DNA of 63,818 nucleotides, counting the filler, from Neolecta irregularis DAH-3 (lineage: Eukaryota): NCBI GenBank assembly GCA_001929475.1. It is 6 parts of 6 records of this genome, joined end to end, with 100 filler letters (N's around TTAATTAATTAA, not from the genome) between each part and the next. Parts side by side here need not be neighbours in the genome. Positions count along the whole stretch, not along the records: positions 29,070 to 39,085 come from LXFE01000127.1; 5 more parts are not named here. One strand, written 5' to 3'. Below are positions 4,003 through 63,818 of this stretch, piece by piece; the stretch's first letter is position 1, and every line of letters starts with the position of its first letter. Made by a program: the position numbers and the translations under genes. Under the pieces are notes generated by a model. The model did no database searches, was not told where the DNA came from, and was given only the letters and a program-made list of their open reading frames with translations.

Positions 4003-7000
4003 ATGTCTTCAATTCAGAAAATGTCTATTCAGGGTAGATATTTCTTTAATCGGTTGCACTAATGCAGACACCAGGCATCCGGGCTTTCGAGGTAATCAAT
4101 ATATGCGAAAAAGACTATTGAGAATACTAATGCAGAAATTTAGCCAACAGAACCATCATACATTGAGTTCTTTACTCCGTTGACTTTAATCTGTGGTCAT
4201 AACGGCTCCGGAAAAACTGCATAATCTCGTATAGAAATCGCTTGCTTACGATAGACAATTATCGAGTGTCTCAAGTATGCTACTACTGGAGACCTACCCC
4301 CAAATACTGGGAAAGGCGCAGCATTTGTCCATGACCCTCAGGTATCAAGATTGACCAATTATTAATTGACTCTAGATTGCCGGGGAAACCGATGTCAAGG
4401 GCCAAGTCAAGCTTTTGTTTCGCAATACCAATAACATCAAGATGATTTGTGTCCGTTCAGTCCAATGTACAATCAAGAAAGGCACACGGTCATTCAAAAG
4501 TCTGGAAAGTCAGCTTACAGCCCACCGAAGCGACAACGAACGATCTACAATCAGTAATAGATGTGCAGAGCTTGATGCGCAGATGCCAATTTCACTAGGA
4601 GTTTCTAAATCTATCCTTGAAAACGTTATATTCTGTCATCAGGAGGACAGCAGCTGGCCGTTAAGTGATCCGAGTACACTAAAGAAAAAGTTTGATGAAA
4701 TATTCGAAGCCCTACGATATACAAAAGCCCTCGACCAGATAAAATCAATTAGAAAAGAACAACAAGCTCAAGTGAAAATCGATGAAGCCACTTTATTACA
4801 TTACAAATCAGACAAAGAACGTGCCGAAAAAGTGAAAGCAGAACAAGATGAAACAAACGGAAAAATTCAAATATTTCAAGATCGAGTTGCAAAATTGGAC
4901 GAACAACTGCGCAAGATCACACAGCAGCAAGATGATCTATTTAGATTTAACCAAGAATTTCAAAAAACTATTGCAGAACTTGCGCAATACCGGCAGGAAA
5001 AAACTTCCCTGGAGAGTAATCTCGAAGAATTATTACACGGTCTTGAGATTTTGGAAGACTCGGATTCAGAGCTTGAAAGTAAACGCAAACGATTTGAAGA
5101 CCAGTTGAAAACTGGAACGGCAGAAAAGAATCGTAAAAAGGACGAAAGGAACAGACTTTCTGAAGACTTGAATTCTCTTCGATCTATATTGAGTCGCCTC
5201 TTATCAGAACAAGGAAAGTATCGCGCTGAAGCCGAGGTAATCGAATTGCTATAGTGTATGCTGAAAGTCAAGGCACATGAGCGGCATATCCAAACACGAG
5301 AAGAGTTGGTAAAATCAATCAGTGAAATTCACGGATTCAAAGGCTTTGAAATGCGCCTCGATGAACGTCGTATCAATGATTTTAGAAACCGTTTATCTCA
5401 CAATCTCAACGAACAAAAGCTATTACTGGAGAATACAAAGGTTTGTTACTATCGACAAAGTTTCTCTGATAGTACTAGTCTGAAGGAAGGAATCGAGAAT
5501 CGGAAATTACCTCAAAGCTTCAAGAAAAGATGGCGAAACAATCTTCATATGATCATGAAAAGTCCGCAGCTCGCAACCAAATTCGATCGATAGAAACCAA
5601 GCTTAACGATGTGCAATTGTCCCATGATAATATTTCAATCAACGAGGACGATGTAATCTTGGTCCAGTCGAAATTGGAGAGGGAAAAATCGGAACTGCAA
5701 AAACTCAAGGACGACTTACAAACAGTCGACTATGAGGAAAAGATCAAGACGAAGAATTCAGAGCTCCGGGAAATTGACGAAAAGCTAGAGTCCCTTAACG
5801 AGGAAACTGTCATCGAAAATCAACATGCGGAGACTCGTGCCAAGTTGACTATGATGAGAGACGAGTCCGAATCCAAGGAGGCCATTTTGCAGAGATTGTA
5901 AGTCTTTATTGTTGAATTTATTGATCACGTTATAGACTCAGCACGACCAAAATCAGGGCTGCTGATGTTTTGGGCGGCGATCCAGATATTTCAGGGCTGG
6001 ACAGTACCCTTTCACAAGTATTAAGGCAGTGTCATAACTGTTTCAAAATCTGACCCTCAGTAAAAAGAATAGACACATTGAATCTGCTGAAACCGATTAC
6101 GAGACTGCCAATCGAGGTTTAGCGGCCTTGCAAACAAGAATGACAATGGTCGAGGAGAGTGTCACTAAAATGAAGAGCCAAAAGACTGGTTCGTAATTTC
6201 TTTCCCTGTGTATATCTTAACTTTCTAGATTACAGAAATCAGCTTGATAACTTGTGCCCTGGTTATGGGCCAAATAGTTATTTGGTATATATCGACGAAT
6301 TGAAAGGTCAGGTTGCAGAGGCATCTGAGTCTGTTAAATTTACGCTCATCATTTAACATCTTAGGCAAATAAACAAGAATCAAGGCGGAATAGAAATTCT
6401 TACTCATGCCAAAAACTACCTTGAGAAACAGAATGCTTGCTTTTTGTGCCGGCGACGTTTCGAAGGGGAGGACGACAAGGGCGACTTTTTAACAGCGGTA
6501 TCTCGTTGAAAAAGTCCACTCACCGAAATACAGATCCTGTCGAGAAATGATCCGAAGAAGCTTGAAGAAGGAAAAGGGCACCTGAAGAAGCTTGAAGACA
6601 CTTTTCGAATTGCACAGAGCAAAGAAGGGATCTATCAATGGTGGAAAAATGCGGATACAGAGATCAATTTAATTCAACGTGAGTATCAAGAATTAAACGA
6701 AAGAATGGATGAGGCGGCCCAGGATGCAGAAGCAGTAAATTGGACGTTAGCAAGATTGTACTAATGAGCTAGAAAAAAGATGCCATTACAAAGGCAAGAT
6801 CAGAATACAGAAAGGCTGAAGAACTGAGGAAACCTATTGCAGAACTGGCCCGGTTACGCGAAGAAATCAAGAAGCTGAAAGTGAGTATCGAGGACCGCGA
6901 AGGCGAACTGGCAAATTCGGGTTCCACGCGTACGATCGAAGAGATCCGAAATGAAGTTACGTCATTGAATGAGAGCAGTCGACGATTAAAGCGGGAATTA

Positions 7001-15017: not shown

Positions 15018-15385
15018 TAATGTTCAAATCCTGTCACGTTAATCACTTCAGCACTTCTTAATTAGCAGGAAATATCTTTCAGAAACAAAAACAATCAGCA
15101 ACCTCTAAGCATGCTCTTCGACCATGTGCAATGGACTCGGGTGCAGAGATGGCACTAGAGTCGATATGACGAGATATATGCTCATAGTCACCACACTCAT
15201 TTAAACTATGAAGGGAGAACAATCGAATAATATTTAAAGGTTTCATAATACTTAACGCGAATTATCGAAGAAAATATGTTGATTGCCATTGCACTAGCTG
15301 CTCCCACCTTGCTTCCCATGTGACTACAAGGGATATTTGGAAACACAAAGAATGCATGGTCATATTACAGCCTTGGCTGATCATA

Positions 15386-20192: not shown

Positions 20193-23136
20193 ATGAGCCA
20201 TCCCCAGTTCATTGACATCCCCGGCCGTGCCATATCGTCCGGGAAGTTCAGACGACAGAGTATAGCCTCGGTGTCACCCCCAGATCCATATGGTTCCGCG
20301 AGTCTCTTGCGTTCAAACATACTCGCAGAAAACTACTTCTCCTCGCCACCTGTGATTCATAATCCTCAGATCTCACAAGCTCAACAATGGGACCTTACTC
20401 TCGAGAAGGCGATCAGGAGTATAGTGAGTATCAAGGCGAGCACACTCCGTGCTTTCGATACAGAGAGCGCTGGAAACTACACGGCTACTGGATTCATTGT
20501 CGATAAGCAGCGCGGCATTATCCTCAGCAATCGTCATGTCGTAAGCCCAGCTCCCATTTCTGCTGCAGCCGTCTTTTGCAACTATGAGGAAATTCCTCTA
20601 GTCCCACTATATCGTGATCCAGTCCATGATTTCGGGTTCTTCAAATATGATCCAGCCAAGGTATAACCTTGGATTTGAGCTAGCCTAATGGTAGGTTCGA
20701 TTCCTTGAATACGATGACATTGAACTGTGTCCCGATCTTGCCAAGGTCGGACTGGACATCAAAGTGGTAGGGAATGACGCCGGCGAGAAGCTGTCTATCC
20801 TTGGATCAACGCTTGCTCGATTGGATAGGGATTCTCCAAACTATGGATCTGGCTCATACAACGACTTCAATACCTTCTACTATCAAGCTGCGAGCGGAAC
20901 ATCGGGCGGTTCTTCAGGGAGCCCGGTCCTTAATATTCACGGGCAGGCAGTTGCACTAAATGCTGGAGGCAGCAATAAGTCTGCCAGCTCGTTCTACCTT
21001 CCCCTCAATCGGGTCATACGAGCTTTACGATGTTTGCAACAAGGATTGCCAATCACCCGCGGCACTTTGCAGACAGAGTTTCGCCATTCATCTTATGACG
21101 AACTCCGCCGTCTCGGATTACGAACTCCGATCGAAGCTGAATGCCGTAGAAAGAACCCCTCTGCGACCGGTCGGCTTACAGTCGATCGAGTTCTTTTGCA
21201 AGGTCCTGGGGATGGAGTTCTTGAGCCAGGCGATATTCTGATGTCTTGCGCGATAGGCGGAGATAACAAAGATATCACTCAGTTCTACACACTTTGGGAA
21301 ATTATCGATGATAATATCGGGAAAGAAATCACCTTCAACCTTTGCCGTGGGCAAAAATCACTTGACGTTAAAGTAATGATCCAGGATCTTCATTCCATTA
21401 CTCCGTCGCGGTTCGCTGAAATCGGAGGTGCAATTATTCATGATCTGAGTTATCAAAAGGCTCGACCATATGATCTCCCAGTTTCCGGTTCTGGGGCATT
21501 CATCGCAACATCCGGAATGTTTAATTGGAGTTCAACAACCCGGGATTTCCTGATCACTTCGATCAACGGTCATGCGACTCCCAATCTTGATAAATTCATC
21601 GAAGCAGTCAAACTAATTCCCGACGGCAAGCGAATCCCTCTGCGATATCGAGACATGGATAGGCAGGAAGAGGAATTCAGTCTTCTTGAAATAGACTGGC
21701 ACTTCCATTCCCCTTTCATCTTTACTCGCAACGATAACACTGGTGTATGGGATGTCGAAAAAATCCTACGAAACCTTGGTCCTCTCCATCCTGTTCGTGA
21801 TATTGTGTCGTCAGGAAACGCTCTGGAGAAGATTCAGTCCACGATGGTTAGCATTTCTTGTCGGCTACCATATAGTATACACGGTTATACCTCGAGTAGT
21901 CCATATAGCGGAGTCGGATTTGTTATTTCGAACAATCCGCCGCTGGTTATCTGCGACCGAGTATGCGTTCCTTCCGAGGTCGTCGATCTCAGAATAACAA
22001 TTTGTAATCGCACTGTCAAAGCTCAAGTTGTCCATCTCTGCACCGTTGCCATTCTGACGTTTGACGGAGAGTGCAATTTGGACATACCTGCCATTGATGA
22101 GGATCCAGTTTCAGTGCACGACTCGGTCATTCTGTTCACGCTCGATCATGACCAACAGCTTATAAAGAAGGAGAGCAAAGTCTCCAGTATCAGCTTGATT
22201 GAAACTCGACGGTGTTATCCACCCCGTTTCCGAGTAGTCAACACGGAAGGTATAATGTTGACAGACTCCTCAAACAACGGTGGTATTATCGTCAGACAAG
22301 TGGACGAAGAATACCGCGTGGTTGCCCTTTGGGGAAATGTCTCTTCACAAGGAAATGACAAAGCTATTACTTGGAAGACTGGAATTTCATTTTCGACTTA
22401 CATCAATCCTGTCTTGGAAATGCTCCGAAAGAAGGTTACTCCTGTTAGCAAGGACGTAGGCGTAGAGTTTTCAAGCATGCAACTCGCCACTGCAGTAGGT
22501 CTTGGATTAACGAACGAACGGACGGATCAACTAGTCGCCGCTGCAAAAGTGCATAACGGAAACCCCCGAGCATTTTATGTTTCCTCTCGCCTTCGTCCTA
22601 GTATGCCAACAGAACTTCAAGTCGGAGATGTAGTTTTTCAAATTAATGGAAAACTCGTTTCTCGAGCTTCTGATTTTGCTGTCATAAACACAAATGAAGT
22701 TGTTGATATTGGCATCCTTCGAAACGGAATTGAGCAAATACTTGCAATTTCCACGATTGTTTCACCCCCTTCGCATGCCAAAAAGATTGTGTCCTGGGCT
22801 GGAGCTCTCCTTCATGAGACTCATGCTGCTGCGTTGGAGCAAGTCTCTTCATCAGCCGTGCCAGCGGCGGGGGTGTACGTTTGCTGTTGTCACTATGGAT
22901 CCCCGTCGATCGACCAGTTTCGACCGGCTCACTGGATCATTCAAGTTGACGACGAGAAGGTCTCCTTCCTTGACGAATTGGAGCAAATTATTTCGGGGAA
23001 GACCGGCGAAGTCATGGTTAAACTCATTAATCGAAAAGGCATTACATGTGTTGTTAGTATCAAGATCGATAACCTCTTTTGGCCTTCCTGGAAATTGGAA
23101 CGCAAAGGGAGTGTTTGGCAACAATCTCTTTTATGA
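20193..23136 (+). CDS. NMA111: HtrA-like nuclear serine protease Nma111/Ynm3, 2 exons
   Basis: ATGFIVD...[41 protein letters not shown] (catalytic Ser), PDZ-like repeats; intron 20661-20694. Confidence 0.92.
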
Positions 23137-28969: not shown

Positions 28970-29069
28970 NNNNNNNNNNNNNNNNNNNNNNNNNNNNNNN
29001 NNNNNNNNNNNNNTTAATTAATTAANNNNNNNNNNNNNNNNNNNNNNNNNNNNNNNNNNNNNNNNNNNN
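28970..29069. other. Artificial assembly spacer (N44-TTAATTAATTAA-N44)
   Basis: The identical 100-bp linker, with stops in all six frames, also occurs at 39086-39185, 40577-40676, 41793-41892 and 62422-62521. Confidence 0.97.
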
Positions 29070-29519
29070 CTAAATGATTTGAAAATCGATTCATCACGCT
29101 TGCCAAATCTTCCAGCACCCTCTCAATAATGAACTAATAGAGAAGTGAAGGAGCACTATATCTCTAGCTAAAGCGGTTTCACATTCATAAATGGTCTAGC
29201 ACCTTTTCAATAATGAAAAAATATGGAGAAAGTAAATGTGTTCTATATCAAAACACCCTACCGCATTTTATCTTGGTCATCCATAAACTGAGACATTCTC
29301 TTTCCCTGATCTATATAATAGGGAAATATTTACCAGAACACTGTAGATTGCTTAGGCCAAGAACACTTGGATAAATTAAGTACTGCCTGAAACAAGCAAG
29401 TTGCAATTTGAGTAGGTTTGGTGAGACTTTGGCTTTTCTTCTCATCTGAAGATTCGATTTGCCGGAGAAGGAAGTATGGTTTTTGTCTCCTCAAGGCTGA
29501 GGTTTTGAGAGGAGGCTTC

Positions 29520-29830
29520 ATAGCTAATTAGAAGGTATTAAAGAGAATGTATTCTTTTGATTGTTCAAGAGACTGGTTCCAGGCCTGTATTTATTGCCCC
29601 ACTGTTCTCCTTTCCTGCAGAGGGGCGAGAAAGCAACTTGAAGACAAATATGAAAATATTGGGGAAGAAAAGGAGAGAAAGGAGAAAACTGACGGTTGGA
29701 TGCTTAGTGCTTGCCGTGCTGCCAAAAGGTCTCACCTCAGGGATTAGGTAGTTCCGCCGGGTTTCTTGTAGAAAGGGGATTCCAAACGAGGATTTTTGCA
29801 GGGGAGGAAAAGGGGGTGAGTATTGTAATT
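29520..29830 (-). repeat. Dispersed repeat family B, copy 1 (diverged)
   Basis: Shares ordered blocks CCCCCTTTT(T)CCTCC, AAATCCTCGTT, CCTAATCCC, CTCTGCAGGAAA and ATTCTCT with 60510-60930. Confidence 0.6.
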
Positions 29831-30227
29831 GATTACGAGAAGGACTTAAGAGAAAAAGAGGGCATAGCAGTTGTCTGTGAAAAGCAGAAAAGGGGGGAAA
29901 TGCAAAGGTTTGCAAAAAGGACCTTTGATCCCTCTGACGGCCCTGTTGTCTCGTCTATTCGTCCCTGCTTGTGCGTCTACCACTGCTAAGGCCGCTTGTA
30001 GCTGTCCCTGTGGTTGGGCTTCGAGTTGCGTTTAAGGGCTTGCATGAGTCCCTACATTTAGGCTAACACTGGAGAAACGGGCGAGATGGGAGCGCGAGGT
30101 GGAGACGGACGCGCGAGGAGGGTGGTATAGGAGAGACCGGCGAGAAGGGCTGGCGAGGCGGGCAGGTGAGGCCGTTAGGAGGAGACATAGGAGAGGGGCT
30201 GCAAAGGATTATTTAATATGACGTGAA

Positions 30228-30297
30228 AAAGCCCGTTTCGGCCCATGGGCTAAGCCCGCGGGCTTTTAATGGGCCAGGTTACTAAGCCCATGGTCCA
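30228..30297. mobile_element. GCCCATGGGC-rich palindromic cluster, probably the terminus of a DNA-transposon remnant
   Basis: Repeated AAGCCC/GGGC(T) units; a similar cluster follows CAGTGTTG at about 37665-37720; it abuts a 5'-truncated gene. Confidence 0.4.
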
Positions 30298-30620
30298 TTG
30301 AGTGCACATACGGATGCGCTTTAACCCGTCTCAGCGCGCGGAAAATACTTTACCACATTGACTATGAAAAAGCGACCGGTTCCCTTGATCTTGCTATGAT
30401 AGGGATGATTGAACATGGACAAATTAGGGGGTATACGGTCGTTCCACCAATTTTTGCAGATTTCAAGGTCGGCGATGCAAAGGAAAAATCCTACAATGTG
30501 GTCGCGACTGCCCCAAACAATGAACCCTCAGTTACAAATGACAATAGAGCCCTAGTTATGGAATACTGGAATATAAGGGATAGTGTTCGTGACCATCTAT
30601 TAGATGAAGTGATGGAGTGA
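30297..30620 (+). pseudogene. GT25-family glycosyltransferase, isolated C-terminal fragment
   Basis: ECTYGCALTRLSARKILYHI...SLDLAMIGMIEHGQIRGYTVVPPIF resembles the C-terminal motif of fungal GT25-like proteins; no upstream exons, begins at the palindromic cluster. Confidence 0.6.
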
Positions 30621-31263
30621 TTTCAGGTATCTGAGTATCACGACCGCAAGTCTTAAATAGCGTGTCACAGGAAAATAGTACACGTGGTATTTTCCGGTTA
30701 TCTGATGGGGTTTCTCTTCCTTGATTTACTATAATGACGTGGCTCATACATGTAAATCTATAAGTAGTCCTGTACCTGCACATTTAAGGATATAAATTGG
30801 TTCATAATTGTCCTGTCTATTCAGTATCCTTGCCAGTTAATCATCACAGATTACGGCAAGGCTTCTAGGTGACAAGCAATGAAAAAGATATGGCCGCCTG
30901 TTCAGGTGCAAACAGATTCTGTGATAATATATCGTGAGAATAAATTTCACACCAGGTCGACCATATTGAGATACTTCAGACATACCAAAGCAAACTTGAT
31001 ATATTTGCTGGTCTTTCCTCAATCGTGAAATATCAACTGGAACTTGCGCTGGCGTAACAAAGTATGAATCTCAGATTGCTTGCAGGAGTATCTGCTAGAG
31101 GATTTCAAAGCGAAACTGACTGGAACGAAGTGAGTAATTCTTTAGATCTTATATGACAGCACAGTCCGTAAATTGATTATCTGCTTGGACTTTTGCCCTA
31201 GCACCACCTTCTTTTGATCAAAATAAATAATCGCCAATACGCCCTGAATCCTTGGCCTTCTCT

Positions 31264-32031
31264 CTAAATGGATCTATGTCTATCCGAGATATATCTTCTC
31301 AGAGCATCGATTGTGATTATCTTAAGCTCGTGTTTCTTAGCAAATTCCGCACAATCATCTCTTCGGGCCATCGAGCCGTCATCCCTGACAATTTCACATA
31401 TTACGGCGCAAGGAGAGAGGTTTGATTGAAGGCAGAGATCTAAAGTGATTGGAATTAATCGATTCAACTTCACGTACCTATGGAAGCTTCAGTATGACCT
31501 TTTCTAGCAATTACTCCGCCTTCATGACAACGCAAGGGCAATATATGGCCTGGACGGCTGAATTGGGATGGATTGACAGACATATCGGCAAGTTTTCGTG
31601 ATGTCAACGCTCTATCATGAGCTGAGATTCCTGTAGTCGTCCCTTCAATCAGCTAGTGAATTCAGCACGCAATGCCTTCAATAAAATCTGTAGAAATAGC
31701 GTATGCTGTCTTCATTCTCTCGTTATTACTCGGAACCATCAGTGGCAACTGTAATTGATCGAGTCGTTCTCCAGTCATCGGAACACAAATATACCCACTA
31801 GCGCATGAGCAACATAACCAATATGCTCAGGCTTTCCTTGTATGCCTAATCATGAAGGCCATTTTCTCAGTTGTCATATGTTCGGCGGCAATAATCAAAT
31901 CTCCTTCATTCTCGCGATCCTCGTCATCCATGACGACAACAAATTTTCCATTTTCTACAGTTGTTAGACTATCTTGGCGAGGCGTATCGCATACGTAAGT
32001 CTTTTATTGTAGATTCAATTGAGTCGAACAT
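31264..32031 (-). CDS. RIB3: 3,4-dihydroxy-2-butanone 4-phosphate synthase (riboflavin biosynthesis), 5 coding exons
   Basis: MFDSIE...[21 protein letters not shown]...[14 protein letters not shown]...[14 protein letters not shown]...RPGHILPL...GHTEAS...[18 protein letters not shown]; two of its introns need non-GT donors. Confidence 0.95.
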
Positions 32032-32194
32032 CGGGACTGTTCTGCCTGACGAAAAAAGGGGAAATTGAATTGAAGGGTTACTTGCGAGGTCAAACGGATT
32101 CGCAAGACATTCGGCTGCTGCACACTAATCTGTAAGATGGAACAATAGAAACCATTAAAATCCTCAGATAACACTAGTTACACAGATACATTAG

Positions 32195-32258
32195 AATAAG
32201 TCATCTTCCAATATTGGGTCTCCACAAGTATACAAATAAGTCATCTTCCAATATTGGG
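32195..32258. promoter_or_regulatory. Two exact 24-bp direct repeats, each containing palindromic CCAATATTGG (CArG/CCAAT), upstream of RIB3
   Basis: AATAAGTCATCTTCCAATATTGGG at 32195-32218 and 32235-32258. Confidence 0.55.
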
Positions 32259-32569
32259 GTAAGAGGTCATTAAATCTTTTCCTCCGCGGAGTGACTGCGT
32301 CCATGAACAGATCATTGGTAGCAGATCTTGGGTATCTAAACTCCTGAAAACCATAAGCTGCCTATATTAATAACCTGGAATTCTCAAAGCCATGTGTATA
32401 ATGTGCGAGAAGATCAAAACGAATACAGTTCAATTGCTAATTCTTGGAAGAAATAGATTGAATGATATCTCATAATCCAATAAATACATTTTTCACAACC
32501 TCGTTTTAATATCAGTTTTGGCTATCGAAGCCCAACATATCTGTCATGATTTTTCGGTCCTCTCAGAGT

Positions 32570-33278
32570 CTAACCATTCTTGGATGCCTGCGCTTGTTCA
32601 TAAATCCAGTCGTTCAACCCTTCGTAATTTCTCCATATCTCAATGGCCAGAAACTAAAGTGTAAGATCGATCACGATCAGAAATAAAATACCTGCATTCG
32701 CGGCACTAGCTGATTAGATAAAACAAAAGATGGATAATGTACCAAAGATGGTGGTTTCAGGACTATATTCAGCTTTGGGACTTGATCTTAATAAAGTTCC
32801 GAAATTGAAATCCTCGATCTGACCAAAATGTCAACGAGATGGCGAAAGATGAAAATGAACCTTTTCCTGGAATAGCAACATGAATTCTCGCCAAAATTTC
32901 TTTCCATCTGGAGATTTCATTTTATCTTCATCAATCGTTTCAGCGGGCTTGAAATCTGGGAAGGCCTTCTTGAGTTCTTCCAAAATCTCTGCATCAATGC
33001 TGTCTGATCAGTTTCTTGACAATTGTCAAAAGAATTTCACTTGGTCAAAGCTAGTTCACTGCCTTTCCTCATGCTGAGAACATTCCAGTAAACTTCTACA
33101 GATGTGAGCAAGATGAAAAAATGACCTACTCACATACCCGCATGCTGAGCCGCCTTGATTGCAAATGCCTGTTCAATCTATACATAAATCGAATTTCTGG
33201 GGATCAAAGATAAAGTACGGTCTCGTCATTTTCTGCATTTTCCGGCACGGCTACTGGGTTATTTGGTGGTTGGATCAT
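32570..33278 (-). CDS. PBDC1/YPL225W-like protein (DUF757), 7 exons
   Basis: Spliced: NAENDET|IEQAFAIKAAQHA|EVYWNVL...LALTNIDAEI...MKSPDGKKFWREF...IEDFNFGTLLR...TIF|VPRMQ|FLAIEIWRNYEGLNDWI. Confidence 0.88.
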
Positions 33279-33461
33279 TGTGTCTGGTGTTGGAATATCG
33301 GCCTCTATTATTATCAAATATTTTAAGGCGGGCTATTATCACACGTGGACCCATCGGCTAGCAATTGCTAGCCCAGCATTCTCAAAGGTAGATCACGAAT
33401 AGTCAAGATATTGAGATGTACTATACACCCAAAATATAATTACTGGGGACCTTTGACAAAC

Positions 33462-35269
33462 TTATAAACACTCCTGTCGCCGCATCATCGAACTACTTTC
33501 TTCATATATCGTATCCATCGATTTGATATCTTTTTCAAAATTCATTCGTACTTGCATTTTGCGAATTGGCTGTTTGCCCTCGGAATGCAAATAAGGAGAC
33601 CTCGAAAAACTCCAGTCCTTTGGAAAGTTCACTTTCTTGAATGCTTGGGAGAGTGATTGCGATATTCGAAAGAATGGAGAAAAGAAACGATGAAATATCG
33701 GTTCGGTTGTATTTCTGTTTTCGCGCAAACGACAAAGTTCTTTAGCACCAGCACTGAGCTCTATCGGAAGCCAACTGCTCCCTCCCATATTTAAGCTTGG
33801 TCGCGCAGATGACAATGACATTTGTTCATAAGGCGCATCCAGTATTTTGAGTTCTTCGTTAAATGATTGGACCTATCCGTCAGTTGTATTTCCAGAATAT
33901 CTGCAGACAATATTATCGATGGACGTGTCTGCATACCCAATATCTTCCAGTCGATGATAAACTTGAGCTAAAAGTTTAACCTTCATTGGTTATAGCAGTA
34001 ATAACCTGCCGTGATTTGAGAATCAATCTTGGTCGTTGAATCTTTCACGGCCTCACCTTGATGAATATCCACTAGCGCTTTGGGACATGTTAAGTCGAAG
34101 TCACAGTCCGTGAACGATAAAGTTTGCAGAAGCCAGTTGGCTGTATCGACCTGTCTTATGTCATGAGATTTCATTACTACAGCCAGGGGTTCATCAGAAT
34201 GTTCTTGTGCGGTCAAAGTTTCAAACCTGTGCATAGGTTCTACATCTTGATCTTGCAATCGCGAGCTTGTCGAGGCGTCAGTTTCAAATATCTTCCTACT
34301 TGCTACCGATCTCGAACATGTTTCTGAATGATTATCTTGCGAACCAAGAACCCATTCAGATGTCCTATATGCCCTGACTGACGAAGTTGGTGTGATAATG
34401 CAAGATGACAGCGCGAAAAGTGGTTCGTCACTTTCAGATTCACTGTCGGACTCCTTCCTTGCCACGACGAGAAGACCTCCCATGACATTGCTATACGTTG
34501 CAGCTCCTCGAGTGAAGGCGCCAAACTTGGTCGCCGAGCCAGCACTGGCGATTCTAGAAGCATCCTCTGGAGCTTCTTCAGAGATCTCTGTTGATATCAT
34601 ACATTTCTTCAATGGAATTGGCGAGGAGGAAATTTCCAATGAAGTTCCTGATACACCAAAAGTCGGTGTATAAATTACTTTTCCTTGTTTTGGCGTTGAA
34701 AACGGTCTGTTGAATGCGTCATCTTCACATCCTGTATCTGGATCTTGAAGCTGATGCTGGCTTCGAAACTGCTGTTTCCTTGCATCAAGTGACTTCGTTC
34801 TACCCTTTGGCTCCGCCAGTGTATCTCGCAATTCGTCATCAAGGACCAGTGTAGTATGGTGCTCAGAAAGGTCAGAAAGTTCTTCAGGATACGATCGAAA
34901 GTGCTTTCTATGCTTGAAGCGGGGTGCACTTCCAAAAAGGAATGATATATCCTCAAACATCTTAGAGAAGCTTTGACTTTCTTCAATATTTCCCTCCAAT
35001 GAAGGTTGCAAGAACGAGGCATTTGAAAGGCCAAGTGGCAGTGAAGCTGGCCTTTTGGCCTTATTAGTTAATTACTTCCTATCCTCAAGAGGTCATACAC
35101 AAATAGTGCTTCTTTTTAGATTGAATGCATGGCCATAAGTAGTAATAGCAGATGTAGCTGCTTGTTGCCTGGACTTTAATTTTTGTATAGTAATGATGAA
35201 TTTTGGAGATAGTTTCTTGGTTTCAGTAGCTTGCTGTCCTCTTGAGGTCTGAACTTCTGTTGATTGCAT
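33462..35269 (-). CDS. Hypothetical Ser/Glu-rich protein, multi-exon
   Basis: First exon MQSTEVQTS... joins through a GTATGA...CTAATAAG intron to a 342-codon ORF, followed by further exons; no recognised domain. Confidence 0.5.
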
Positions 35270-35612
35270 CCTTGTGAATAATATAACAGAAAAGAGGTAC
35301 AAAATAGGAATAACTTTTATTCTGGAACTAGAATAAGAAGAGGGTTGAATTTTTGTTTGAAATTAGTATCTATCTCTTGAAAAATTGGGGCTATATATGT
35401 AAGGGCTAATTATCCATATCTTACATATTCAGTGTTGGCAACAATATGTCAATAAATATGATATATTGTATATCATGTGATATGATATGGGTTCTTTCAT
35501 ATTTTGCCAATATGAGATAGGATTTTTCATATTGTGACAATAGGATATAGGGTTTCCACCCTTGCCCATGCAGACATGATCACCCAGCGCGTCCCGCTAA
35601 ATCAATTGGTTC

Positions 35613-36382
35613 AAGTTACCTTACACCATTGCCAAAAATGCAGACGATTACGGAACCAAGGTCATGTATGAGGATAAGGTATATGTACCGTAGGACGATT
35701 TTACGGAGGGATTATTCATTGAATATCGACATTTTCACAAGCAAAATATTGAGCCAGGATTCGAATTTGGCTTTGGATCATGTGAGCATCTTTTTTATAT
35801 ATGGTCCACTAACACTTGAAAGCTTATTCCACATTCACCTATGCTAGCCTTTTGATAGTTAGCGATTCTCCGTATCAAGCCAATCCGACCGTACCGTTGA
35901 AACCTATCATTAGAACACCAACTCGAGGTAATGTTAGACACTTCCAAGCACATTCACCCGCGTCAAAAATCACATTTATCCGTACATCTCAGCAGATGCA
36001 AATATCGATATCGGTCCATATCCTTACCCACCTCATGCAGTAGATACCACTCCACATCTACCAAGCCCAGCTGGTGGTGGACCTGGAGGAAATCCATCTC
36101 TATATGATGTCTTGTATCAAGCATCAGCAACGATCACCAATAACGAACCACTTCCAGGGAAAGTAGTTGCTCAATTATATATCGGTTTACCGGAATGTGT
36201 AGATGCGCCCCCCAAAACAATTTCGTGGCTTTATAAAAGTGTCATTGGATGTGAATTCACCTGCTACGGTTACTTTCAACTTGACTCGATGCGACTTGAG
36301 TATCTGGGATATCAAGATCCAGAACTGGGTTATTCTTCCTGGTACTATCAAAGTCTTTGTCGGAAAGAGTTCGCGATATTAG
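35613..36382 (+). pseudogene. GH3 beta-glucosidase, 3' fragment with frameshifts
   Basis: KLPYTIAK/(fs)NADDY...[14 protein letters not shown]...FEFGFG|SYSTFTY...GGPGGNPSLYDVLY...VAQLYIGLP...PPK/(fs)QFRGF...LTRCDLSIWD...VFVGKSSR; catalytic N-terminal part absent. Confidence 0.85.
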
Positions 36383-37743
36383 ATGCTGTCCATTGCGAAT
36401 AAAACTTCCAGATCCAGTGGAGGCGGGGGAAGCGGGCAATGAAGCAGGCGTCGAGGGGCAAGGGGATGTAGCGGCAAGAGGATGTAGAGGATTGCGCTGG
36501 GTAGGGTTAGAGCCCTAAACCCTATGTGATGAAGAGAGAAGTGACCTGCAGAAAAAGGAGACAATTCCGAAAGGCTGGTGATGTGCCCATAATGCGGCAA
36601 CAATCAAGACGAGCATCTCTTTTTTTAACACTTCAAAGGTCCCCAGATCGATGGATGTAAGATTAACAACTTTTTACCTGTAAACAGATTACCAGCGTAT
36701 GGAAATATTCATATCAGGCTAGCTGGTAATCCTCGAACGAATCTACTTATGCAACCATTTGACCACATCCTCTTCACTATCATTCGAAGAAGCATATTCC
36801 CCTCTGCATTCGAATTGAAAAGTAAACCTAAGGCTGCTTCCGAAGAATGGGAACAATTTCAGGGTATCGACTAGAAAATTCGCGATGGTGAAGGAGGCTA
36901 CGTAGAGGCCGCCATTTTGTGGGTCAGATTTTAGTCCGTACAACCACCCGGGTTGCTAGCGGCTCATGCTAGTGGCTTGCATTTTTGGCCTTTTACTGTA
37001 TCTCAATGACTAATGTTCAACTGGATATCAGGTACTAAAAGGCTCGAGAACATCTAGCTTACCTGAGAATATACTTGATTTTCATAATCATCCATAGGAC
37101 CTTGAGCTGACTGAAATATAAATAGTGCCCCTTGCTGATGGAATTTATATTTCAATGAATCTTCTTCGTGACATTGCTTGCTTCGCCTTCATCATCTCTG
37201 CCACGAAAGACAATGAAGAAACAGAAGCTGACGCTTCCACTCAAACCTGGCACTTCTCACCCCTTCGGTCTCGCGAATTTTATCCTTTGTTTATTAAACA
37301 CGAAAGAAGTAAGGAATATCTTGCCTGTGGTCTAGCCCCGAAATCACATGCGGACAATATTAGATGGGATAGTTCTGGGTCTCAGAATTCCGGACATTTG
37401 TATTTTGGAACGACCAAGGCTCACTATGAAGAGAATGATGAGAGTAGAGCAGTCCTTTTTGTTGCAGCAAAATATCCTGCGGTATTTCAGTTGGAAGATT
37501 CCACGCTTATACACGATAAATCCAAGATTTGGTATAAGCCCTTTTTCGGTTGTGATAGAATATGTTCGCAAAAAACTTCAACATGTAGCATTGAAGGTAG
37601 CATAATTAGGAATTGTATGGGTCTATGTTTCACGCACAGTTGAACTGACAAGTATAGAACCGACCAGTGTTGCGATGGGCCAAAGCCCATGGGGTTTTTG
37701 TAAAACATGGCCCATGGGCATGTAACACACACGTTGATGCTGC

Positions 37744-38247
37744 CTGAAGATATGGTAGATCTGCTAGATTCTCAAGTGGTGTTTGGATAGAAGAAAAGGA
37801 GCCGGTTGTTGTTATTGTGATATCTTCTACTTGCTTATGTGACGAAGGGGAAAAGTACCCGGCTACATACCCAGCGAGAGAAAGAGCCACATCAGTAAAA
37901 GTAAAAAGATAAAAAAGGAATACATGAGTTCCCAAGCTCCCGTAAACTACCTAAGGTGACTGCCCAGTGCTCCGCATACTCCCGATAGCAAGGATACTCT
38001 GTGAAAAGCGATCACCAAAAGGATGAAGCTTCCGACCAGTACGATGGGCTAGCGATATGCGAGGGCGAGGAGGCAAGGTTTGGCGGGGTTGAGGATACAC
38101 ATTCCCTATTCAGGATGAGCGAATGAAGAGAAAACAGACCAGGCAGGTGATTATTGCGAGTGAGTGGATAATTGAAAAAGGATGAAAGAGCGTTATATTA
38201 TGACTGACCGATTTTGGCATGGATGAGTGAAGGAATGTGATTTTGAT
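37744..38247 (-). repeat. Dispersed repeat family A, copy 2
   Basis: Reverse complement aligns with 27162-27682. Confidence 0.9.
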
Positions 38248-38285
38248 CATGTGTACAACAGGCCTATATGACGCTGTTTATAGCC

Positions 38286-38738
38286 CTAATGCCAAGGTGC
38301 TGGACATTGAGATAGCATCTGAACATCTGCAGATATATATGCGATTTCATCATGTGGTTCACTAGCAGGTATGATAACATAGTGACCTGACCCAAATGAA
38401 ACGACCAATACACGAGAACAGTTGCTAGTTTCGTGCCTTTGAATGGCAAAGTAATACGAATTTGACTTATATGCATAAGAAGCTTTGGGCCCATACAACT
38501 TGAGAAAGATCAATGCATGCTGATCAAAGGAGTTTGGAGAATTAGGAACTATACGAATCCATGGTTTGAGTGCAGAAATGAGTGACTTTCGATCGAGATT
38601 ATGCGATAGCGAACCTTGTTTTAGACTACTCGAGGATTTAAGGTCGAAATCTTTCTCCGATAGTGCAGCAGCGTCCCAGAAATACTCGATAAAATTGCGG
38701 CAAATCTCTTCCTTGTTGGTATCACCGAGTGCAGTTGG
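38286..38738 (-). other. Orphan exon or gene fragment (151 open codons)
   Basis: PTALGDTNKEEICRNFIEYFWD...PWIRIVPNSPNSFDQHALIFLKLYGPK...; preceded by an acceptor-like CTAG, no start codon. Confidence 0.3.
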
Positions 38739-39038
38739 CTAGCACGTGTATCCATTCTAAGGGTTCGGGGGAGGAAAGCGGCGAGGCAGAAGTAGGGACC
38801 GGGGTGATGTAGCTGAGATTAGACTAGCGGGCAAGGAGACGGAAGGGAAGGTCGAGTGGATGCGGGTGAGTGAGGCGAGGGTGGATGGGAGGTGCGGGAG
38901 CAGGGCGTGAATGAGAGCAGGGCACTGCAGCAACTAGACGGCGAGGAGGGCCAAGCGGGTGGGGCTTTGAGGAGGCGGGCGGGTGCGGCAAGAAGAGTGA
39001 GAAGGGGAGTGTTGACCGGTCAAGGAGGGCAAGGCATA

Positions 39039-39085
39039 GTGCAGGCACTGGGAGAGAGTGCAGGCACTGGGAGAGAGTGCAGGCA
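39039..39085. repeat. 19-bp tandem repeat running into a gap
   Basis: (GTGCAGGCACTGGGAGAGA) x about 2.5. Confidence 0.8.
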
Positions 39086-39185
39086 NNNNNNNNNNNNNNN
39101 NNNNNNNNNNNNNNNNNNNNNNNNNNNNNTTAATTAATTAANNNNNNNNNNNNNNNNNNNNNNNNNNNNNNNNNNNNNNNNNNNN

Positions 39186-40576: not shown

Positions 40577-40676
40577 NNNNNNNNNNNNNNNNNNNNNNNN
40601 NNNNNNNNNNNNNNNNNNNNTTAATTAATTAANNNNNNNNNNNNNNNNNNNNNNNNNNNNNNNNNNNNNNNNNNNN

Positions 40677-41600: not shown

Positions 41601-41892
41601 GTATTTAGTAGCACGTTTTGAGAACCTTTGGAAGTAGGGCTTGAGGCCTTCATGGGGTCGCTGCTTGATGTTGAAGACTGAAGCTTGCAGACGATGCTGA
41701 TCTGATGCGGTTACCCCAAATTCTGTCCCTCCCGTTCCGCTCCAGCCTCGCCCGTCGCTCCCGTCCTGCCCATCTCACCCGCCCGACCCACCNNNNNNNN
41801 NNNNNNNNNNNNNNNNNNNNNNNNNNNNNNNNNNNNTTAATTAATTAANNNNNNNNNNNNNNNNNNNNNNNNNNNNNNNNNNNNNNNNNNNN

Positions 41893-62421: not shown

Positions 62422-62521
62422 NNNNNNNNNNNNNNNNNNNNNNNNNNNNNNNNNNNNNNNNNNNNTTAATTAATTAANNNNNNNNNNNNNNNNNNNNNNN
62501 NNNNNNNNNNNNNNNNNNNNN

Positions 62522-63768
62522 TGCGGGCGTCGCCGCTGTTTGAGTCGCTGCTGATCATCGGGCGCGACGCGGACGTGGTGTCGCCGATGCTGACGCCGCT
62601 GACGTATGCGGGGCTTTTGGGGGAATTGTCTCTGACGGACACTCCTCTCTCCTCGGACACGCTTCCCTCGATCTCCTCCGACACGCCTCCCTCGGACAAA
62701 CTGTTTGCCCAGCTGGGCGACTCGCACTTTGCGGTGGTCGGCGCGCTGCTGCACCGCGTTGCGCGCAGCCTGCACGACGACTACGCCGCGCGCCACCGCG
62801 CCACAACCGTCGCGCAGCTCAAACACTTTGTCGCGTCGCTCGGCGCGCTGCAGGCGCGGCACAGCTCGCTGCGCCTGCGTACTTTGTCTCCGCCGCCGCG
62901 CTGACCGCAGACACCGCCCTCGCGGAACACATCGCGGCCCGCACCGCCACGCCGCTCTTCGCCGCGCTGCTCGACGCGCAGCAGCGTATCGCTCCCCCGC
63001 GGCGCCGCTGACCGCTGACCGCAGTCATGCTCGCCGCAGACCCCGCCGCGCACACAGCCCCGATCCTCGATCTCGTCGCCCGCCACCCGCCGCTCCCGCT
63101 CCCGCTCGTCCTGCGCCTGCTCGTCCTGCACTCCGCCGTCGCAAACGGCATCCGCCCCAAGGACCTGCTGCTCTTCAAAAAAGAGGTCCTGCACACCTAC
63201 GGCTACCACCACCTGCTCACCTTTGCCAATCTCGAGAAAGCGGGCCTCCTCAAACCGCGATCCCCGAATGCGAAATCCGCCTGGCCCCTCCTCCGCAAGG
63301 CCCTCCGCCTCATCGTAGACGACGTCGACGACCACGACCCGCAGGACATCGCCTACGTCTACAGCGGCTACGCCCCCCTCAGCGTCCGTCTCGTGCAAGC
63401 CGTCCTCCAGAAACACCTCTTCCAGAAACTGCCCCCCGCCGCCGCCGGCTGGAAAGGCTTCGAAGACATCCTCCGCCACGTCCCCGGAAAGACATTCGAC
63501 GAGTTCCAGAAGGCTGACTCGCTCAGTAGTGGCTCCCGTCTGCTGACCCTAGATCCCTCCCAGCCCAAGCCCAAAATCACAGTCGTCTTTTTCCTCGGCG
63601 GCATCACCTGGGCCGAAATCGCTGCCCTGAGGTTTATGATGGCCAAAGAAAATAGTACGCTTTCCTCGAAATTTCTCTGATCTAGGTGATCGTCGCATTT
63701 TGATCGCAACAACTGGCATTATCGATGGCAATTCCATGATAGAGAGTTTGATTTATTGTCCTGATTAA
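62522..63768 (+). CDS. VPS33: Sec1/Munc18-family protein Vps33, 3' part
   Basis: LLIIGRDADVVSPMLTPLTYAGLL, LFAQLGDSHFAVVG, LRLHTALAE, TYGYHHLLTFANLEKAGLL, DIAYVYSGYAPLSVRLVQ, VVFFLGGITWAEIAALRF. Confidence 0.93.
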
Positions 63769-63818
63769 ATTTATTGTGATTTGATTTGTCCTGATTTGAT
63801 TTGTCCTGATTTGATTTG
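63747..63818. repeat. Minisatellite (GATTTGTCCTGATTT-like) overlapping the VPS33 stop
   Basis: ...gatttgatttgtcctgatttgatttgtcctgatttgatttg to the window end. Confidence 0.7.

What the first reader, a model, noticed from the sequence alone, without database searches (positions are those of the whole stretch)
31798..31836. Apparent GA-AG intron in RIB3
Keeping the conserved [16 protein letters not shown] requires the 39-nt intron to start at AAG|GAAAGC (minus strand) and end at GCTAG. Read-through hits TGA, and no GT in the right phase precedes that stop. GAAAGC is the GTAAGY consensus with +2 T changed to A. The only alternative is a GC donor 9 nt upstream (31845), which would delete the conserved RHT. 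GA-AG introns are very rare. The next intron of the same gene is GC-AG, so two of four coding introns in one riboflavin gene are non-GT. This could reflect a relaxed spliceosome or rate-limiting regulatory splicing (inference).
Basis: partly seen in the sequence, partly recalled or inferred. Interest (0 to 1): 0.8.

Follow-up and report, generated by a model that had tools for sequence, protein, structure and literature searches.

The report
Real GA-AG intron in fungal RIB3
A 39-base intron in the vitamin-B2 gene RIB3 of the fungus Neolecta irregularis starts with GA instead of the near-universal GT yet is cleanly removed from the transcript, a rare but already known kind of exception that gene-prediction software tends to miss.

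Summary
On the minus strand, 31836-31798 is a 39-nt segment, AAG|GAAAGC...GCTAG|T, inside a DHBP synthase (RIB3) gene. A protein in the window is 100% identical to one that NCBI labels Neolecta irregularis DAH-3.

A contig of coded run X2 skips exactly this segment and three other stretches of 40, 33 and 38 nt. Its exons match the window perfectly. The DNA-run contig X1 keeps all four segments and has the A at +2.

Removing the four segments gives an intact 205-aa protein. All 120 homologues score higher with the GA-AG splice than with the rival GC donor at 31845. The nearest upstream GT is 98 nt away.

Apart from +2A the intron looks typical of this window in length, branch-like motif and acceptor. 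Its donor flanks rank at about the 90th percentile. Four homologues carry apparent unspliced introns at the same position, with T at +2 in at least three. The GA is therefore probably a derived T-to-A change in an old intron.

A noisy window survey shows no excess of non-GT introns. The ideas of a relaxed spliceosome or regulatory splicing remain untested. This is a new member of a known rare class.

The parts
31264..32031 (-). RIB3 / DHBP synthase coding region: ATG at 32031-32029, stop codon at 31266-31264, five exons, 618-nt CDS, 205 aa
   Evidence: Pfam PF00926 at 4.4e-51. The spliced CDS starts with M, ends with a stop and has no internal stop. It is 62% identical on average to 120 fungal homologues.
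31995..32031 (-). Exon 1 (coding part)
31955..31994 (-). Intron 1, 40 nt, GT-AG (GTATGC...CTAAC...TGTAG)
   Evidence: the X2 contig skips 40 nt, ends CT..AC on the + strand
31837..31954 (-). Exon 2, 118 nt, ending ...ATT AGG CAT ACA AG
31798..31836 (-). Intron 2, 39 nt, GA-AG: the finding
   Evidence: the X2 contig joins 31797 to 31837, and the cut can slide by 2; a 13-residue gap in the PDB alignments; 120 of 120 homologues prefer this splice.
31831..31839 (-). 5' splice site, positions -3 to +6: AAG|GAAAGC, with A at +2 (31835)
   Evidence: 5 of the 7 flank positions match CAG|..AAGT, which only 12 of 106 predicted GT donors equal or exceed; the flank PWM score is at the 91st percentile.
31827..31829 (-). 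In-frame TGA met if the intron is read through
31805..31809 (-). Branch-like motif CTCAT. The putative branch A at 31806 lies 8 nt from the 3' end of the intron.
   Evidence: in the 61 of 106 predicted introns with a YTRAY motif, the most common distance is 7-8 nt. The branch point itself is inferred, not mapped.
31845..31846 (-). Rival GC donor, 9 nt upstream. It would delete RHT. It is not the junction seen.
31676..31797 (-). Exon 3, 122 nt
31643..31675 (-). Intron 3, 33 nt, GC-AG, bounded by an 8-nt direct repeat (ATTGAAGG)
   Evidence: skips 33 nt, and the cut can slide by 8; an 11-residue gap. Read-through contains in-frame TGA and TAG.
31478..31642 (-). Exon 4, 165 nt
31440..31477 (-). 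Intron 4, 38 nt, GT-AG (GTACGT...TTTAG)
31264..31439 (-). Exon 5 (coding part, including the stop codon)

Best explanation
This is a genuine U2-type spliceosomal intron with a GA-AG border in the RIB3 (3,4-dihydroxy-2-butanone-4-phosphate synthase) gene of Neolecta irregularis. It is removed precisely from the mature transcript, and its removal is required to make the enzyme.

Inferred origin. The intron sits at an old, shared fungal intron position. The GA arose from GT by a T-to-A change at +2.

Inferred mechanism. The site is still recognised because everything else about it is good for this organism.
- The flanks AAG|G.AAG give six U1-complementary positions, three on each side of the single mismatch.
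- The length of 39 nt is typical for the window.
- A branch-like CTCAT lies 8 nt from a YAG acceptor.
- There is no competing GT within 98 nt upstream.

The A at +2 should cost one base pair with U1 during recognition. It should cost the U(+2)-U6 A51 pair during catalysis. Splicing may therefore be slower than at a GT site, but it is productive.
For: Shown by calls:
- one X2 contig (1256 nt, depth 142, 0 mismatches in the exons) skips exactly 31798-31836 and the three other introns. The DNA-run contig X1 retains all four and shows no joined form. The joined form is therefore not seen as DNA in that run.
- X1 has the A at +2 at depth about 387.
- the gene belongs to PF00926. Two solved fungal enzymes align with a gap of exactly 13 residues over the 39 nt.
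- the five exons give a 205-aa ORF with no internal stop. 120 of 120 homologues score higher with GA-AG than with the GC-donor splice (mean 260.6 against 250.8 bits).
- no GT lies between 98 nt upstream and the in-frame TGA. Of 14 frame-preserving splices that start with G and end with AG, none starts with GT, and only GA at 31836 restores RHT-SGY.
- the donor flank score is at the 90th-91st percentile of 112 and 106 predicted GT donors. Length is 39 against a median of 37. The branch-like A is 8 nt from the 3' end, where the mode is 7-8.
- 4 of 120 homologues carry 12-26 extra residues exactly at this junction, and 3 of 120 do so at the GC-AG junction. None do at the other two junctions. At the GA position the first inserted residues are R-F, R-Y, S-Y and R-L. 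By the genetic code this means G at +1, and T at +2 in at least three of the four.

From papers (passages read):
- PMC7072748: GA donors supported by RNA-seq are flanked by an upstream AG and a downstream A, as here.
- bioRxiv 10.1101/212811: U(+2) pairs with U6 A51 in the C* and P complexes.
Against: - X2's record kind is only a guess ('DNA?'). That it is a transcript assembly is my inference from its make-up (20,248 contigs, 11.1 Mb) and from the clean loss of all four introns.
- X1 may be the same data from which the window was assembled, so it is not independent proof of the A.
- X2 carries a different organism label (B) from X1 (A). A GT allele in the RNA source cannot be formally excluded, because the spliced contig no longer contains the donor.
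- Contigs hide rare variants and give no splicing efficiency.
- No lariat or branch point is mapped.
- U1 and U6 of this species could not be inspected, because no genome is held.
- The intron set used for the percentiles is ab initio and noisy. In the one gene I could check against a public protein, 1 of 2 predicted introns was false.
- The 'unspliced intron' reading of the homologues' insertions is inferred from protein sequence only, and those homologues are unnamed.
Confidence: 0.85

Rival explanations
1. The donor is really GT. The A at 31835 is an assembly error, or the major allele of a mixed field sample, and the transcript comes from a GT allele.
For: The window is built from short draft contigs of about 1-29 kb joined by linkers. 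X1 may be the assembly's own reads. X2 has another organism label. The spliced contig cannot show the donor base.
Against: An independent re-assembly of the DNA run has the A at depth about 387 in an unbranched 3218-nt contig, and no other letters are listed. The exons of X2 and the window are identical at all 701 exonic bases laid, which argues for the same strain.
Confidence: 0.06
2. The joined form is not a splicing product. It is an intronless DNA copy (a retrogene) or a reverse-transcriptase template-switching artefact.
For: X2 is labelled 'DNA?'. The 33-nt neighbour is flanked by an 8-nt direct repeat, which is typical of template switching.
Against: The DNA run X1 shows no joined form at any of the four joints. 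The GA intron shares only 2 nt between its two ends. All four removals are exactly those needed to restore a conserved, stop-free 205-aa enzyme, which artefacts would not achieve four times. The unspliced gene has in-frame stops.
Confidence: 0.03
3. The GA and GC donors are a regulatory device or a symptom. Either Neolecta's spliceosome is generally relaxed about +2, or the two weak donors throttle riboflavin synthesis through slow or conditional splicing.
For: Two of the four introns in one gene are non-GT. Both lie at old intron positions. +2A removes a U6 A51 pair used in catalysis, so slower splicing is plausible.
Against: - With all 16 donor dinucleotides allowed at an equal penalty, the window model chose GT 114 times and GA 3 times. 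One of the three GA picks was the verified intron, one was wrong inside RIB3, and one was unverified. It chose GC twice and the other nine dinucleotides it picked 1-3 times each, which is noise level.
- Two further GAAAG candidates proved false on inspection.
- There is no structure signal and no riboswitch-like match.
- About 1.3% of annotated fungal splice-site combinations are not GT-AG (PMC7072748, section 3.1 read). By my arithmetic, a few four-intron genes with two such introns are expected per genome by chance.
- The spliced contig is well covered (depth 142).
Confidence: 0.06

Closest known systems
GA-AG introns of the human FGFR genes (cited in PMC7072748 and PMC4176328; passages read; the primary paper was not seen)
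   Same: A U2-type intron with a GA 5' splice site that is removed efficiently and is evolutionarily conserved.
   Different: According to those passages, the FGFR GA site depends on a canonical GT 6 nt upstream and on downstream intronic elements. Here the nearest upstream GT is 98 nt away and the whole intron is only 39 nt.
Abundant GA-AG introns of Eurytemora affinis and Oikopleura dioica (PMC7072748, passages read)
   Same: The GA donor is flanked by an upstream AG and a downstream A. The junctions are supported by RNA-seq.
   Different: In those animals GA-AG outnumbers GC-AG; the paper gives 3.2% of supported junctions in one of them. A variant U1 was proposed there. Here it is one verified case beside about 106-120 predicted GT introns in 64 kb, and U1 could not be examined.
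Constitutive GA-AG intron of human ITPR1 (PMC4176328, passages read)
   Same: A single constitutive GA-AG junction that standard mappers and annotation get wrong.
   Different: It is an animal gene with a long intron. In Neolecta I could only show that no DHBP synthase model labelled Neolecta appears among the proteins listed in the 30-85 and 86-277 aa searches. I could not see how the locus is annotated.
GC-AG introns, the major non-canonical class
   Same: They also differ from GT at the +2 position of the donor. The neighbouring 33-nt intron of the same gene belongs to this class.
   Different: C at +2 is widely tolerated and accepted by gene finders. A at +2 is far rarer.
5' splice site U2A mutants in budding yeast (recalled from memory; not read here)
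   Same: The same base change at +2.
   Different: As I recall, such mutants stall before exon ligation. Here ligated mRNA is the assembled form.

Membership tests
U2-type spliceosomal intron, GA-AG subclass | Precise excision from the mature transcript at GA...AG borders | tested here: met
   the X2 contig joins 31797 to 31837. The cut can slide by 2 nt, but only the GA..AG register has G at +1 and an AG acceptor. X2's record kind is only guessed.
U2-type spliceosomal intron, GA-AG subclass | U2-type 5' splice-site flanks complementary to the U1 5' end | tested here: met
   AAG|GAAAGC matches CAG|GTAAGT at -2, -1, +1, +3, +4 and +5. The consensus is recalled general knowledge. The U1 of this species was not seen.
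U2-type spliceosomal intron, GA-AG subclass | Branch site a short distance upstream of a YAG acceptor | tested here: inconclusive
   CTCAT with its A 8 nt from the 3' end, and acceptor TAG. This fits the window's modal distance of 7-8 nt, but no lariat was mapped.
U2-type spliceosomal intron, GA-AG subclass | Spliceosome-dependent two-step removal (lariat intermediate) | not testable with these tools
   Needs lariat sequencing or in vitro splicing.
U12-type (minor spliceosome) intron | 5' splice site /RTATCCTT and branch site TCCTTRAY (recalled consensus) | tested here: not met
   The intron starts GAAAGCCT and has no TCCTT motif.
FGFR-type GA site that depends on a nearby canonical donor | A canonical GT a few nucleotides upstream that recruits U1 | tested here: not met
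   the nearest upstream GT is at -98. Only a weak GC lies at -9 (TAG|GCATAC).
DHBP synthase (RibB / Rib3, Pfam PF00926) | Full-length match to the family profile and to solved enzymes | tested here: met
   4.4e-51, profile positions 9-141 of 191, for exons 2-4; 1tks at 2.2e-40; a 205-aa product, about 62% identical on average to 120 homologues.
DHBP synthase (RibB / Rib3, Pfam PF00926) | Enzymatic activity | not testable with these tools
   Needs an assay or complementation.

The most novel reading that the evidence does not exclude
Neolecta, whose introns are squeezed to about 35-40 nt, recognises introns mainly by their length and flanks. It therefore tolerates changes at +2 that are dead ends elsewhere. 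In RIB3 the GA and GC donors at two ancient intron positions are kept as a slow-splicing throttle on riboflavin synthesis.
Probability: 0.06. Interest if true: 0.7.

Novelty: new member of a known kind. Interest (0 to 1): 0.4.

Why it matters
It is a natural example, backed by a spliced contig, of a productive GA 5' splice site in a fungus, inside a 39-nt intron, with no helper GT nearby. The published helper-GT explanation for the FGFR sites cannot apply to it. That makes it a compact substrate for asking how the U1 and U6 contacts at +2 can be dispensed with.

In practice, gene finders restricted to GT or GC donors will truncate this essential vitamin-pathway gene at the in-frame TGA. My own model did so under a stiff penalty on non-GT donors. 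Such a truncation can create false 'riboflavin auxotrophy' calls in comparative genomics. I found no DHBP synthase model labelled Neolecta among the proteins listed for the two length bands searched (proteins over 277 aa not searched).

Tried and rejected
- Whole genome: none is held. There was therefore no genome-wide GA-AG count and no look at U1 or U6.
- Sequencing runs: no RNA holder is listed. Only two coded runs were available, both as contigs, so there are no read-level ratios, start points or intron-retention estimates.
- ORF-joining screen of all 16 donor dinucleotides: it does not discriminate. Background dinucleotides pass at a ratio of about 0.08 and GT at only 0.14. The short RIB3 exons fail its thresholds.
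- Self-trained Viterbi gene finder: useful for the consensus and the length peak, but noisy. It merged genes, and in the one gene I could check it added a false intron.
- Other GAAAG-type candidates: 36159-36202 lies in sequence that continues the protein domain reading, and 35818-35858 sits beside a plain GTGAGC...AG intron. Both were rejected.
- Intron gain by tandem duplication: no intron resembles its flanking 60 nt of exon more than shuffles do (all p > 0.1). Only the 8-nt border repeat of the 33-nt intron remains unexplained.
- Read-through or stop-codon recoding of the in-frame 39 nt: rejected by the 13-residue gap in the PDB alignments and by the joint.
- Relatives' DNA: the metagenome scan returned 80 loci. 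The best was 56% identical, and all those I saw were uninterrupted matches of about 400 nt, so no close relative was found.
- Earlier scan notes: none exist for this genome. The three sequence look-alikes concern unrelated riboflavin topics.
- RNA structure and riboswitch: z = -0.33. No Rfam match at the gathering score in the whole window. One sub-threshold archaeal snoRNA model hit lies inside exon 5 and is taken as chance.
- Public annotation: no protein labelled Neolecta appears among the best 120 of 5389 hits of 86-277 aa or among the 71 hits of 30-85 aa.
- Neolecta genome paper PMC5309816: a term search of the main text found no occurrence of intron, splice, RNA-seq, transcriptome, gene prediction or riboflavin. 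Its methods are in supplements that I could not see.

Full report
**What is there.** On the minus strand the window carries a five-exon gene. Its ATG is at 32031-32029 and its stop codon at 31266-31264. Exons 2-4 can be read in one frame, because two of the intervening segments are multiples of three. That read-through translation matches Pfam PF00926, DHBP synthase, at 4.4e-51. It aligns to the solved Candida and Magnaporthe enzymes (1tks at 2.2e-40, 1k49 at 6.1e-37) with gaps of exactly 13 and 11 residues over the 39-nt and 33-nt segments. The 39-nt segment is 31836-31798: AAG|GAAAGC...GCTAG|T. Reading through it meets a TGA at 31829-31827.

**Organism and make-up of the window.** The 813-codon ORF at 20695-23133 is 100% identical to a protein that NCBI labels Neolecta irregularis DAH-3. 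The window is six draft contigs joined by artificial spacers of 44 N, TTAATTAATTAA and 44 N. RIB3 lies on the piece 29070-39085. The genome paper, of which I read main-text passages, reports a 14.5-Mb assembly with 44% GC and says that DNA and RNA from fruiting bodies were sequenced (PMC5309816). A term search of its main text found no occurrence of intron or splice.

**Is the segment removed?** Two coded public runs hold the locus.
- Run X1 has one contig, 3218 nt long at k-mer depth about 387. It is identical to the window across 31250-32100, so the A at +2 stands. X1 may be the assembly's own data.
- Run X2 has one contig, 1256 nt long at depth 142, on the gene strand. It skips 38, 33, 39 and 40 nt and has no mismatch in the 701 exonic bases laid.
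- The joint 31797 to 31837 has skipped ends CT..TC on the + strand, which is GA..AG on the gene strand. It can slide by 2 nt to GG..TA or AG..CT. Only the GA..AG register has G at +1 and an AG acceptor.
- X1 shows none of the four joints, so the joined form is not seen as DNA in that run.
- X2's kind is only guessed as 'DNA?'. Its make-up (20,248 contigs, 11.1 Mb) and the clean loss of all four introns make a transcript assembly by far the likeliest reading. That is my inference.

**Does the splice make sense?** Joining the five exons gives 618 nt and 205 aa, from M to a stop, with no internal stop.
- All 120 homologues score higher with the GA-AG splice than with the GC donor at 31845 (mean 260.6 against 250.8 bits).
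- The residues RHT-SG align with R/K, H/Y, S/T, S and G in those homologues.
- The nearest upstream GT is 98 nt away. The next GTs lie inside the intron, after the TGA.
- Of 14 frame-preserving splices that start with G and end with AG, none starts with GT. Only GA at 31836 restores the conserved motif.

**How it compares with the organism's other introns.** No genome or annotation is held, so I trained a small gene finder on the window itself.
- It predicts about 112-122 GT-AG introns, with a sharp length peak at 34-41 nt and a donor consensus near AG|GTATGY.
- Of the 112 short introns in the final model, 106 are required, meaning that reading through them would hit a stop or shift the frame.
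- The set is noisy. In the one gene I could check against a public protein, it found the real 34-nt GT-AG intron and added a false one.
- Within that limit the GA intron is ordinary except at +2. It is 39 nt long against a median of 37. It has a CTCAT whose A lies 8 nt from the 3' end, where the mode is 7-8. Its acceptor is TAG.
- Its donor flanks are unusually good, at the 90th-91st percentile by PWM score. Five of the seven flank positions match CAG|..AAGT, which only 12 of 106 predicted GT donors equal or exceed. Only 1 of 106 combines -2A and -1G with +3A, +4A and +5G.

**Is non-GT splicing common here?** I let all 16 donor dinucleotides compete under one penalty.
- The model chose GT 114 times.
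- It chose GA 3 times: the verified intron, a wrong call inside RIB3, and one unverified 93-nt candidate.
- It chose GC twice, and the other nine dinucleotides it picked 1-3 times each. That is noise level.
- Under a stiffer penalty the model truncated RIB3 at the TGA, as a standard annotator would.
- Two other GAAAG-type candidates proved false on inspection.
- The survey has low power, but it gives no hint of a generally relaxed spliceosome.
- Fungal annotations average 98.7% GT-AG (PMC7072748, section 3.1 read). By my arithmetic, a handful of four-intron genes with two non-GT introns are expected per genome by chance.

**Age of the intron.** In a MAFFT alignment of the spliced protein with the 120 homologues, four unnamed contig-derived models (P0011, P0016, P0052, P0113) carry 12-26 extra residues exactly at junction 2. 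Three (P0011, P0016 and the Serendipita indica model P0026) carry 15-19 extra residues at junction 3. None do at junctions 1 and 4.
- The insertions differ in length and sequence, and they look like in-frame introns that were translated through.
- At junction 2 the first two inserted residues are R-F, R-Y, S-Y and R-L. For a phase-2 intron this fixes +1 as G. It fixes +2 as T in at least three of the four, since L allows T or C.
- Neolecta's own read-through is R-K (AGG AAA), which puts A at +2.
- I infer that both non-GT introns sit at old fungal intron positions, and that the GA arose by a T-to-A change. DNA of relatives could not be obtained: the metagenome scan gave only distant, uninterrupted matches.

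**Mechanism (inferred).**
- U1 normally pairs with -3 to +6 of the donor. Here six positions pair around a single A-A mismatch.
- In the catalytic spliceosome, U(+2) stays paired to U6 A51 while G(+1) and the branch adenosine recognise the 3' AG (bioRxiv 10.1101/212811, passages read). An A at +2 loses that pair, so some kinetic cost is likely.
- Strong flanks, a standard intron length and the lack of any competing donor would let the site be used anyway.
- The known FGFR GA sites are said to rely on a GT 6 nt upstream (PMC4176328 and PMC7072748, passages read). That cannot apply here.
- The flanks do resemble those of the RNA-seq-supported GA donors of Eurytemora and Oikopleura, which have an upstream AG and a downstream A.

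**Regulation.** The donor region shows no structure signal (z = -0.33). No RNA family matches at the gathering score in the window. Around the gene there is only one sub-threshold match to an archaeal snoRNA model, which I take as chance. A role as a splicing throttle is not excluded, but nothing supports it.

**Verdict.** The observation and the core interpretation are right. This is a real GA-AG intron that is removed from the transcript, next to a GC-AG intron, in an intact RIB3 gene. GA-AG introns are a documented rare class, so this is a new member of a known kind. Its interest lies in three features: it occurs in a fungus, it sits in an ultra-short intron, and it has no helper GT. It also shows how such a site can hide an essential gene from annotation. 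I found no DHBP synthase model labelled Neolecta among the proteins listed for the two length bands searched, but proteins over 277 aa were not searched.

Noticed in passing
window 28970-29069, 39086-39185, 40577-40676, 41793-41892, 62422-62521: Five identical artificial spacers (44 N, TTAATTAATTAA, 44 N). The window is therefore six separate contigs laid end to end, and features should not be read across these joins.
   Followed up: yes
window 62522-63818: The last 1.3-kb piece is 62.5% GC, against 42-45% for the other five. It encodes a Sec1-family fragment (PF00995, 7.3e-30). It probably comes from another eukaryote in the sample.
   Followed up: partly
window 31643-31675 (minus strand): The 33-nt GC-AG intron is bounded by an 8-nt direct repeat (ATTGAAGG), so the cut can slide by 8 nt. 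The intron shows no wider similarity to its flanking exons (p = 0.14 and 0.43). Homologues carry insertions at the same position.
   Followed up: partly
window 32235-32258 and 32195-32218 (minus strand): A perfect 24-nt direct repeat, with copies starting 40 nt apart, lies about 165-230 nt upstream of the RIB3 ATG. If the upstream 102 nt of the X2 contig are collinear with the window, the contig would reach to about 32202, into the downstream copy. It could be a promoter or 5'-UTR element.
   Followed up: no
window about 36150-36382 (+ strand): The tail of a glycoside-hydrolase-like gene. Positions 36203-36379 match the Fn3-like domain PF14310 at profile positions 16-71 (6e-17). By eye, the start of the domain lies upstream in another frame, across a C/A homopolymer run near 36205-36216. 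This suggests a frameshifted pseudogene or a homopolymer assembly error.
   Followed up: partly
window 6026-6060 (+) and 15076-15114 (-): Two further candidate GC-AG introns, of 35 and 39 nt (AAG|GCAGTG... and AGA|GCATGC...). The ab initio model picked them only under the light penalty on non-GT donors. They are unverified.
   Followed up: no
whole window: Introns are extremely short and uniform: the predicted length peak is 34-41 nt and the median is 37. The donor consensus is near AG|GTATGY, and a branch-like A lies 7-8 nt from the 3' end. The four RIB3 introns confirmed by the X2 contig are 33-40 nt long.
   Followed up: partly
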